DNA from: Girardia tigrina
Lineage: Eukaryota
Assembly (NCBI GenBank): GCA_001938485.1
Contig: MQRK01233049.1
Coordinates: forward strand, 6,200-69,905
Direction: 5' to 3'
Length of the DNA stretch: 63,706 nucleotides
Shown piece by piece: positions 43,944 to 45,537 of this stretch. The notes below the pieces were generated by a model. The model was not told the origin of the DNA. It did no database searches and was given only the letters and a program-made list of their open reading frames with translations. Both the position numbers and the translations under genes were made by a program. Each line of letters starts with the position of its first letter. Within the stretch, counting starts at the first letter, position 1.

Positions 43944-45106
43944 TCAGAATATTAGCATAAAAATCTCGCGATATACTCGCGTATCTACGGTATTTCTACT
44001 TGGATTAATGAATAATGATGGATCATAAGGCGTTGGATGTAATGAGTGTCTTCCCGGTGGTTCATCAGGAGGATAATAATTTTCAGGTTCCGGTGGTATT
44101 TCATTTAATGGATGGTAAGGTACCATAGAATTTTCTCTCCAATCATAAATGTATTCAGGATTAATTTTATGTTTCCATGTTATCATTTTACTAAAAAGAT
44201 GTGAATCATCATATATTGTATAGACTATCAAACAGTCACCATAACCTTGTTTTGGTGAAGTTTATGTTTTGGAAAGTGGTGAGGAGCATCATCGCTGTCC
44301 AACCATTGTGTCGAACATCGCCGATTGTCGTAGAGAATCCACTTCTCATCACACGTTAAAATCCGATCGAGAAACGGTCGTTCTTGTTGCGCAGAAGAAG
44401 CGCGGAAGACACCTCAAAACGACGATTCTTTACTTTCATTCAATTCGTGAGACACCCACTTATCGAGCTTTTTTGACTTTCCAACTTTAGTTTGTTCTTC
44501 TTCTGTTAATTTATCATAATTAAATAAATCATCTTTTAATTTTTCATATATACCAGCTTGTATATTTCTGTCTGCATAATAAAGTTCATGTCGTTTCATA
44601 TCATCTCTTTTATTACCAAAAATTGTATTAGCAATATATTTTCCAACATAAGCTGCTCCTGCTTCAGACATTAAACCTCATAACGACCGATGGACATTTG
44701 TTTACTAAGTTTCTTACGTGGTAAAGTTCTTATAATTCTTTTTAAGTATTGTATTTTAATAAATTACTTTTGTATGATAATTTTTTAGATGATATGCATT
44801 ATATTTATTTCCAATACCTTTCATATATGAGCTTTGAGGTTTAGGAATAATCATCATATTTCGTCTTTGGTTATAATTAAATGGATGTATTTTTTTAAAT
44901 TCATTGTAATTATTTTTTCGACTTAACATAGCTGCTTTCATAAATAATTTTTGAGTATTCTTAACTTTTATTGTCTTACTTTCTGCTTCACCAGTTAATG
45001 AAAAAGTGGATTTAGCGTTTGTTAAATTTTTATATAAATTAAAGGGTTTACGTAAAATTTTATCAATCGCCTTTGGAAAAATTTCATTAGCTAAACGGCC
45101 ACTCAA
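43944..45106 (-). CDS. Orphan ORFs of the virus-like element (43944-44231, 44414-44671, 44756-45106); function unknown, possibly structural
   Basis: Co-oriented ORFs directly downstream of the PLA2-like gene; no recognisable family. Confidence 0.35.
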
Positions 45107-45114
45107 AGGATGTG

Positions 45115-45537
45115 TTAGTAAATAATTATGATATTTTTGTATTTGACTTTGTAATCTTCTTCAGAACGGTTGGATTCGAATTTTCGAAATTTATCTAAAT
45201 TAGTTTTAACTACAAATACTGCTTTAATTAATTTCTTTTCAAGTACTTCTAGTTGGCTTAAACTATTATCAGGAATTTTTTCTATTTCGTCTAATAATAA
45301 TAAATCAGCTTCGTGTCTAATTTTTTTATTTTTTGACTCATGTTTATTTATTGACAAGCCTCATCAATAACATTTAACGGTTCGTAACCAGGTCTAGCTT
45401 CCTTTGTAATAGGATCTAATCTTTTTTTGGTACAAGTACCTGTAACCATAAAGATGCATTTCTCCAACCATTAATTTGGAAAAATTTCGCTTCCTTTGGT
45501 TCGTAGAATTACTTAATTTAAACTTCGCTAATTCCAT
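45115..45537 (-). pseudogene. Viral-type phospholipase A2-like protein (parvovirus VP1u / Polinton PLA2-like), frameshifted
   Basis: GEMHLYGY/GTCTKKRLDP...PGYEPLNVIDEACQ/...IRHEADLLLL matches E.H..GY..GPGT...RL....N.LD.AC..HD..Y...RH.AD. Small deletions remove the GP and HD positions. Confidence 0.65.

What the first reader, a model, noticed from the sequence alone, without database searches (positions are those of the whole stretch)
43944..45537. PLA2-like gene and orphan ORFs head-to-head with Rep R1: possible virion module
Seen: a frameshifted PLA2-like frame starts ~180 bp from the R1 ATG on the opposite strand across a (TA)n tract, followed by three unknown co-oriented ORFs. Established: this PLA2 type serves endosomal escape in parvovirus VP1 and also occurs in Polinton-like viruses. 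Inference: the element makes or borrows particles, and an unrecognised capsid protein may be among these ORFs.
Basis: partly seen in the sequence, partly recalled or inferred. Interest (0 to 1): 0.7.

Follow-up and report, generated by a model that had tools for sequence, protein, structure and literature searches.

The report
Decayed virus-like element carrying a phospholipase
An animal genome holds broken copies of a little-known single-stranded-DNA virus-like element, and here its replication gene sits back-to-back with a broken membrane-cutting enzyme gene of the kind viruses use to enter cells, which hints that these elements once travelled in particles, although no coat protein was found.

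Summary
The observation mostly holds. A PLA2-like gene in three frame pieces starts 183 bp from the ATG of an intron-bearing HUH+SF3 Rep on the opposite strand, across (TA)11. A profile of natural viral PF08398 domains picks two of these pieces, collinear, above 61 of 61 controls. The Ca-loop and His-Asp motifs are absent, so this copy is dead. The 'unknown ORFs' are interrupted by a 261-bp mariner fragment. The Rep array and a separate NS1/E1-like helicase match the planarian PEVE/PIVE elements; the best Rep hit in the viral collection is a PEVE-type segment (34%) with the same back-to-back layout but no detected PLA2. Diverged contigs from two runs of one species and study join the PLA2 region to Rep again, on short anchors (26-36 bases), and no Polinton gene was found in the window, so the PLA2 probably belongs to the element. 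No capsid was found: the orphan pieces match nothing and the largest models as all-helical at low confidence. Verdict: a new variant of a known kind; a virion-entry role is plausible but inferred.

The parts
45394..45537 (-). PLA2-like gene, first piece (start codon to first break; the calcium-loop motif is missing)
   Evidence: ATG at 45537; 1-2 of 300 shuffles reach its score against its five best natural PLA2 rows
45351..45470 (-). PLA2-like gene, second piece (helix leading to the catalytic site; the His-Asp pair is missing)
   Evidence: profile positions 34-52, 9.3 bits, best hit in the window
45115..45360 (-). PLA2-like gene, third piece (C-terminal helices)
   Evidence: profile positions 60-109, 6.7 bits, second-best hit, collinear
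44756..45160 (-). Orphan ORF, 134 aa, basic (19% K+R), predicted helical
   Evidence: no credible hit
44483..44677 (-). Orphan ORF piece upstream of the mariner insert
   Evidence: no hit, none credible
44222..44482 (-). Internal mariner transposase fragment inserted into the module; not part of the element
   Evidence: PF01359 E 2e-08; depth 1e5-9e5 against 1e2-1e3 around it, and joint 44221-44483 in X1 and X2
43944..44221 (-). Orphan ORF piece downstream of the insert, Pro- and acid-rich
   Evidence: no hit
45538..45720 (.). 183-bp AT-rich spacer with (TA)11; inferred two-way promoter
   Evidence: promoter role not tested
45721..47177 (+). Rep R1: HUH endonuclease plus SF3 helicase, split by an inferred 53-nt GT-AG intron at 45974-46026
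   Evidence: 734 relatives at E<=0.001; relatives P0006 and P0008 carry Viral_Rep/Gemini_AL1_M; 34% to L001 Rep
47240..47541 (-). 3' part of the separate NS1/E1-like SF3 helicase gene, tail-to-tail with R1
   Evidence: 82.6% to 55973-56274
55973..56728 (-). Longest copy of the separate SF3 helicase
   Evidence: PF19263, PF01057, PF00519
59160..62992 (.). Rep(+), helicase(-), G-rich inverted repeat, Rep(+): the repeating unit of the array
43541..43940 (-). End of a second repeated, probably spliced gene that abuts the module; membership of the element uncertain
   Evidence: 92.6% to 17635-18037; higher depth than the module

Best explanation
The stretch is one decayed, integrated copy of a PEVE/PIVE-type single-stranded-DNA virus-like element. 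Shown: an HUH+SF3 Rep and a PF08398-type PLA2 gene point away from a 183-bp spacer; a separate NS1/E1-like helicase gene lies tail-to-tail with Rep; this copy's PLA2 is broken and lacks its catalytic motifs; a mariner fragment has landed in the downstream ORFs. Inferred: Rep nicked and copied the element by rolling-circle or rolling-hairpin replication; the spacer was a two-way promoter; the minus strand carried one PLA2-headed gene, or a short run of genes, for a minor virion protein that breached the endosome on entry, as parvovirus VP1u does, followed by basic and helical parts that bound DNA or the shell. The major capsid protein is not in these ORFs: it lay beyond the junction at 43941, on another segment, or came from a helper virus.
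For: PLA2 profile chain 16.0 bits, 0 of 61 controls. Link to Rep in diverged copies: X2 record 10 (1550 bp) covers 45140-45341 and 45441-45602 (33 other letters in 162) and joins 45602 to 46029 in Rep; X1 record 4 (1013 bp) joins 45577 to 45770 and runs on through Rep (18 other letters in 104, 30 in 145); a third joint 45249-46002 stands in both X1 and X2. 8 of 11 scored differences between copies fall on third codon positions of the minus-strand frames (p=0.009). [quoted passage not shown] Window Reps form a 9-row clade (95) sister to L001 (87). PMC3198968 describes PEVE and the integrated PIVE with a Rep-like and an NS1-like protein. No Polinton gene found in the window.
Against: The joints rest on anchors of 26, 28 and 36 letters with unknown sequence between; the tool warns about sides under 30. 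X1 and X2 are one species label and one study, and X1 may be the assembly's own sample; X3 and X4 gave only partial low-identity matches. None of 22 Rep-bearing loci from public collections, L001 included, has a PLA2 hit. The orphan pieces show no homology to L001's minus-strand ORFs (z at most 1.2). No capsid was identified in the window or in L001. The L001 branch is long (2.41) and the tree is a quick search. The codon test uses 11 places out of 847 differences, of which the tool showed 40.
Confidence: 0.6

Rival explanations
1. A PLA2X fragment of a Polinton (adintovirus) or densovirus landed beside a Rep copy by accident, as the mariner fragment did, and was then duplicated with it.
For: The pieces score best mostly against Polinton-type PLA2 rows (neighbours with integrase, A32 ATPase and double jelly roll). 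The locus has taken up foreign DNA (mariner, MULE). L001 has no detected PLA2.
Against: 0 credible matches of 448 ORFs from the 24 PLA2-motif loci in the window (one E 5e-4 hit antisense to a Rep tail). Linked copies differ by about 20% on both the PLA2 and the Rep side and show third-position bias. The 183-bp divergent spacing and L001's back-to-back layout fit a genome design. The seed motif was chosen with a cysteine, which favours Polinton-type rows.
Confidence: 0.17
2. The element has no capsid at all: it is a plasmid- or transposon-like replicon that uses the PLA2 for membrane damage inside the host (exit in vesicles, cell-to-cell spread) rather than in a virion.
For: No capsid found in the window or in L001. 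About 11 Rep-derived stretches in tandem look like local amplification. PMC3198968 section 8 treats PIVE as a transposon-like integrated element.
Against: PF08398-type PLA2 is described as a virion or virion-module protein in parvoviruses, adintoviruses and RNA viruses (PMC8502044; PMC11903649). The capsid searches were weak: single-sequence models with pLDDT 31 and 56.
Confidence: 0.13
3. The orphan ORFs are themselves a highly diverged major capsid protein fused behind the PLA2, as in parvovirus VP1.
For: All pieces are co-oriented behind the PLA2, and other copies differ by insertions in the zone where the window's frame changes (table 4), which fits one long gene.
Against: Only about 300 non-mariner codons; the 134-aa piece models as six helices and no strand (low confidence); no viral fold hit at E<=0.001; beta-favouring residues are 20-33% of the four pieces.
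Confidence: 0.1

Closest known systems
[quoted passage not shown]
   Same: Circovirus-like Rep plus a separate NS1/E1-like SF3 helicase (PMC3198968 section 8 and supplement tree rows); Rep 34% identical to L001's and split in two frames there too; ORFs back-to-back with Rep.
   Different: A PLA2 gene stands where L001 has a 626-aa basic/helical ORF without a detected PLA2; no homology between the minus-strand ORFs; Rep and helicase lie in one integrated tandem array; no terminal inverted repeats found around the PLA2-Rep unit. The PEVE paper and the Repbase PIVE entry could not be read, so a PLA2 in PIVE is not excluded.
CRESS-DNA viruses (Cressdnaviricota)
   Same: Single HUH+SF3 Rep, with a second gene on the opposite strand.
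   Different: No stem-loop nonanucleotide, no jelly-roll capsid found, an extra helicase gene, and a PLA2; the phospholipase described for this phylum in the passages read is the PLA1 of bacilladnaviruses (PMC11903649).
Parvoviridae VP1u PLA2 / ambisense densoviruses
   Same: PF08398-type PLA2 at the start of the gene opposite the replication gene; NS1-like SF3 helicase domain.
   Different: The initiator is a CRESS-type Rep, not NS1; no VP jelly roll follows; the genes diverge rather than converge (densovirus layout recalled).
Adintovirus/Polinton PLA2X
   Same: Most of the closest-scoring natural PLA2 rows; a PLA2 followed by a basic tail (PMC8502044).
   Different: No integrase, A32 ATPase or double jelly-roll gene detected in the window.

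Membership tests
PEVE/PIVE | Rep related to the PEVE large-segment Rep | tested here: met
   34% over 244 aa, best of 16 viral loci; sister clade at 87 support on a long branch; L001 tied to PEVE
PEVE/PIVE | Separate NS1/E1-like SF3 helicase gene | tested here: met
   PF01057, PF00519, PF19263 on two copies; no direct comparison with the PEVE small segment, which was not retrieved
PEVE/PIVE | Terminal inverted repeats around the segment | tested here: inconclusive
   L001 has 243-bp ones; the window has three G-rich inverted repeats at helicase 5' ends but none found bounding the PLA2-Rep unit (search limited to arms within 400 bp)
PEVE/PIVE | Homologues of the large segment's other ORFs | tested here: not met
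   no tblastn hit in 41000-45750 from L001 ORFs; z at most 1.2 for the four module pieces
PEVE/PIVE | Extrachromosomal form (PEVE; recalled) | not testable with these tools
   contig depth is no copy number
Cressdnaviricota | HUH motifs I-III and SF3 Walker A/B/C in one Rep | tested here: met
   motifs read in the sequence (motif names recalled); relatives hit Viral_Rep; the window Rep itself has no Pfam hit
Cressdnaviricota | Stem-loop origin with the circovirus-type nonanucleotide (motif recalled) | tested here: not met
   0 exact matches; 18 with one mismatch against 20.8 expected
Cressdnaviricota | Single jelly-roll capsid gene | tested here: inconclusive
   none found, but only broken pieces and single-sequence models were searched
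PF08398 viral PLA2 | Collinear similarity to the domain | tested here: met
PF08398 viral PLA2 | Calcium-binding loop and catalytic His-Asp | tested here: not met
   absent from all 3 minus frames of this copy
Polinton/adintovirus | Integrase, A32 ATPase, double jelly-roll capsid | tested here: not met
   448 ORFs from 24 loci, which hold these genes, give no credible hit in the window
Polinton/adintovirus | Protein-primed PolB | not tested
   no PolB query was confirmed among the fetched loci
Parvoviridae | NS1 with HUH and SF3 in one protein, and a VP jelly roll behind the PLA2 | tested here: not met
   the 251-aa helicase ORF matches only the SF3 part; no VP found

The most novel reading that the evidence does not exclude
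PEVE/PIVE-type elements are the relics of an unclassified animal ssDNA virus lineage with three replication and entry modules: a spliced CRESS-type Rep, a stand-alone NS1/E1-like helicase, and a Polinton-type PLA2 entry protein read back-to-back with Rep, packaged in a capsid not yet recognised or borrowed from a helper virus.
Probability: 0.3. Interest if true: 0.75.

Novelty: new variant of a known kind. Interest (0 to 1): 0.5.

Why it matters
PEVE has been known since 2002 as a two-helicase element, and in the one paper on it that I could read no capsid or entry protein is assigned to it. A parvovirus/Polinton-type PLA2 tied to its Rep lineage is a concrete hint that these elements are, or were, infectious particles, and a case of module exchange between CRESS-type, parvovirus-type and Polinton-type viruses. 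It makes a simple question testable by observation alone: is this DNA found protected in particles in the host animal?

Tried and rejected
No whole genome is held for the window. Direct searches of the PLA2 start found nothing in Pfam, PDB or the 5.8-billion set (9 candidates, none scored). Single-sequence Rep scan of viral contigs: 14 stretches, none confirmed. Metagenome scan: 6 loci, only L017 close, 1161 bp with no flanks. Helicase scan of viral contigs: 1 match, no locus returned; L001's terminal repeat found only L001. I first took L001's 277-aa ORF for a parvovirus-like capsid by eye; Pfam, PDB, homologue search, AlphaFold (pLDDT 31.5) and Foldseek gave no support, so it stays unassigned. 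An episomal, amplified form was considered from X2 depths (327 against 9-37 for exact-window contigs) and dropped: X1 shows 306-537 against 114-284, and contig depth is no copy number. No RNA holder listed. Two tblastx hits to L020 (E 0.006, wrong strand, not collinear), one L043 hit (E 5e-4, antisense to a Rep tail) and an L011 hit (E 0.038) were treated as noise. PHROGs gave only E>=0.0096 hits to unknown families. Earlier-findings look-ups returned nothing. The PEVE paper is not held. A profile search of the Rep loci's records was not available.

Full report
Setting. The window is AT-rich DNA of an animal: exons of a voltage-gated potassium channel (BTB_2 at 41096-41671, Ion_trans at 33430-34422), MULE and mariner pieces, and assembly gaps. 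No whole genome is held. That the host is a planarian is my inference from the element's relatives; it was not tested. From 45721 to 62992 lies an array of about 11 Rep-derived stretches on the plus strand and, on the minus strand, copies of a separate SF3 helicase gene (55973-56728, 60729-61387, and a 3' part at 47240-47541; PF01057, PF00519, PF19263). All 7 places where the second Rep exon's opening codons were found have an AG just before them, and 6 of 7 have a candidate GT donor within 75 bases, so Rep carries a conserved short intron (inferred; no RNA).

The observation. The minus-strand ATG at 45537 and the Rep ATG at 45721 are 183 bp apart, with (TA)11 between. The PLA2-like sequence is in three frame pieces. 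Pfam, PDB and the large protein set did not detect it. I therefore fetched 24 viral loci with a PLA2 catalytic motif, kept the 18 stretches that passed a calcium-loop filter, 15 of them distinct; 5 of 5 tested are PF08398. Among 2586 window frames only two scored at E<10, both in the finding. They match profile positions 34-52 and 60-109 in order, 16.0 bits together; 0 of 61 controls (60 block-shuffled, 1 reversed window) reached that, maximum 10.2. The first piece scores above all but 1-2 of 300 shuffles against its five best rows. The calcium loop and the catalytic His-Asp are absent from all three minus frames: this copy cannot be an active enzyme.

The orphan ORFs. ORF 44413-44228 is mariner transposase. 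Laying four runs on 43275-47560 showed depth of 1e5-9e5 over 44133-44561 against 1e2-1e3 over the rest of the module, and a joint that skips 44222-44482 in both X1 and X2. The insert is thus foreign, and the ORFs on its two sides are most simply parts of one interrupted gene. The remaining pieces (134, 65 and 91 aa) have no credible match in Pfam, PHROGs, the Atlas (2 of the 3 pieces sent) or viral folds (1 of 3). The 134-aa piece is 19% K+R and models as six helices (pLDDT 56). At about 43941 the module meets the end of another repeated gene (92.6% to 17635-18037). Nothing here looks like a jelly-roll capsid, but the tests were weak.

Does the PLA2 belong to the Rep element? One search lists three joints between the two sides. 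X2 record 10 (1550 bp) covers 45140-45341 and 45441-45602, has 120 letters where the window has 99 in the PLA2 core, and joins 45602 to 46029 (side 26). X1 record 4 (1013 bp) joins 45577 to 45770 (side 28) at a spacing that fits collinearity, then follows Rep at about 80% identity. A joint 45249-46002 (side 36) stands in both runs. Of the 40 differences shown (847 in all), 20 places lie in 43944-45537; I left out 8 in the frame-change zone and 1 in the mariner insert, and 8 of the other 11 are third codon positions (p=0.009). Against: the anchors are short, the sequence between is not shown, both runs come from one study and species label, X1 may be the assembly's own sample, and X3 and X4 add nothing. 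No other organism or virus showed the link: 0 of 22 Rep-bearing loci had a PLA2 hit and 0 of 24 PLA2-motif loci had a Rep hit. For the Polinton rival, 448 ORFs of those 24 loci (integrase, A32 ATPase and double jelly roll confirmed in the 4 of 5 loci scanned that gave Pfam hits) gave one antisense E 5e-4 hit in the window and nothing else.

What the element is. The Rep has 734 relatives at E<=0.001 among 1.84 billion proteins; the ten close ones looked up are unnamed. The best of 16 viral loci is L001 (34%): 5699 bp, 243-bp terminal inverted repeats, Rep in two frames on one strand and ORFs of 626 and 277 aa back-to-back on the other. [quoted passage not shown] In a 50-row quick tree the two window Reps tested sit in a 9-row clade (95) whose sister is L001 with P0016 (87, long branch). 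PMC3198968 (passages, section 8 and supplement search) describes PEVE, not found integrated, and PIVE, integrated in Schmidtea; its supplement tree lists PIVE_3p beside the PEVE large segments and PIVE_1p beside the small segment. This fits the window's Rep plus separate helicase. L001's other ORFs are not detectably homologous to the module and have no PLA2 hit. Three G-rich inverted repeats lie at helicase 5' ends (motif 7 times against 0.21 expected); none lies in the PLA2-Rep spacer, and no circovirus-type nonanucleotide was found.

Mechanism. Shown: gene layout, domain identities, breakage, the mariner insert, recurrence of the link in one species. Inferred from known families: Rep-initiated rolling replication (recalled); a two-way promoter in the spacer; an entry role for the PLA2, since this domain frees parvovirus particles from endosomes, is fused to capsid genes in RNA viruses (PMC11903649, passages) and marks adintovirus virion modules as PLA2X (PMC8502044, passages). 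I put 0.6 on the PLA2 gene being a native minor-virion gene of this element with the major capsid elsewhere, 0.17 on accidental capture, 0.13 on a capsid-less element, and 0.1 on a capsid within the orphan ORFs.

Novelty. Nine literature searches (listings only, except the papers named here) showed no report of a PLA2 joined to a CRESS-type Rep or to PEVE/PIVE. Preprint 10.1101/555375 (passage and section 9) lists a PLA2 cluster among unclassified circular elements without stating a link to Rep; its supplements were not seen. PMC7508674 (passages) reports PLA2 in RNA viruses; PMC9896142 (passages) mentions parvo-like hybrid viruses without a PLA2 statement for them; PMC13055364 (passages) and 10.1101/001727 (passage) added only context. 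The PEVE paper and the Repbase PIVE entry could not be read and may already hold such an ORF. The element type is known; the PLA2 module is, on this evidence, a new variant.

Noticed in passing
window 52402-52520, 56663-56820, 61432-61573: Three G-rich inverted repeats, each at the 5' end of a helicase gene copy; candidate origins or segment ends (motif 7 times against 0.21 expected).
   Followed up: partly
window 17635-18383, 43541-43940, 52611-52830: A second repeated, probably spliced gene, twice next to the Rep/helicase array and once alone; its 5' part weakly resembles L001's 265-aa ORF (3 of 3000 shuffles, one of 36 comparisons). It may be another gene of the same element.
   Followed up: partly
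window 57794-58182: A third, frameshifted Rep type, closer to L001's Rep in its Walker A region (58% over 55 aa), followed by a basic Pro/Thr/Ser-rich ORF at 58225-58716 with no hit.
   Followed up: partly
window 33430-34422 and 41096-41671: Exons of a host voltage-gated potassium channel; the array lies upstream of this gene.
   Followed up: no
window 50070-51388: MULE transposase inserted in the Rep array, across an assembly gap.
   Followed up: no
window 14630-14941: Frame resembling an Lsm/Sm protein (by eye, recalled).
   Followed up: no
L023, L034, L035, L036, L041: PLA2-like ORFs in RNA-virus-type contigs, next to polymerase-like and capsid-like ORFs read by eye (L036's is PF08398), in line with PMC7508674.
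   Followed up: partly
L001:207-1040: 277-aa ORF of the PEVE-type segment, unassigned; a candidate for the missing capsid by position and by eye only.
   Followed up: partly
window 43275-43417: A very high-depth short repeat beside the assembly gap, left of the module (depth 3-5 million).
   Followed up: no
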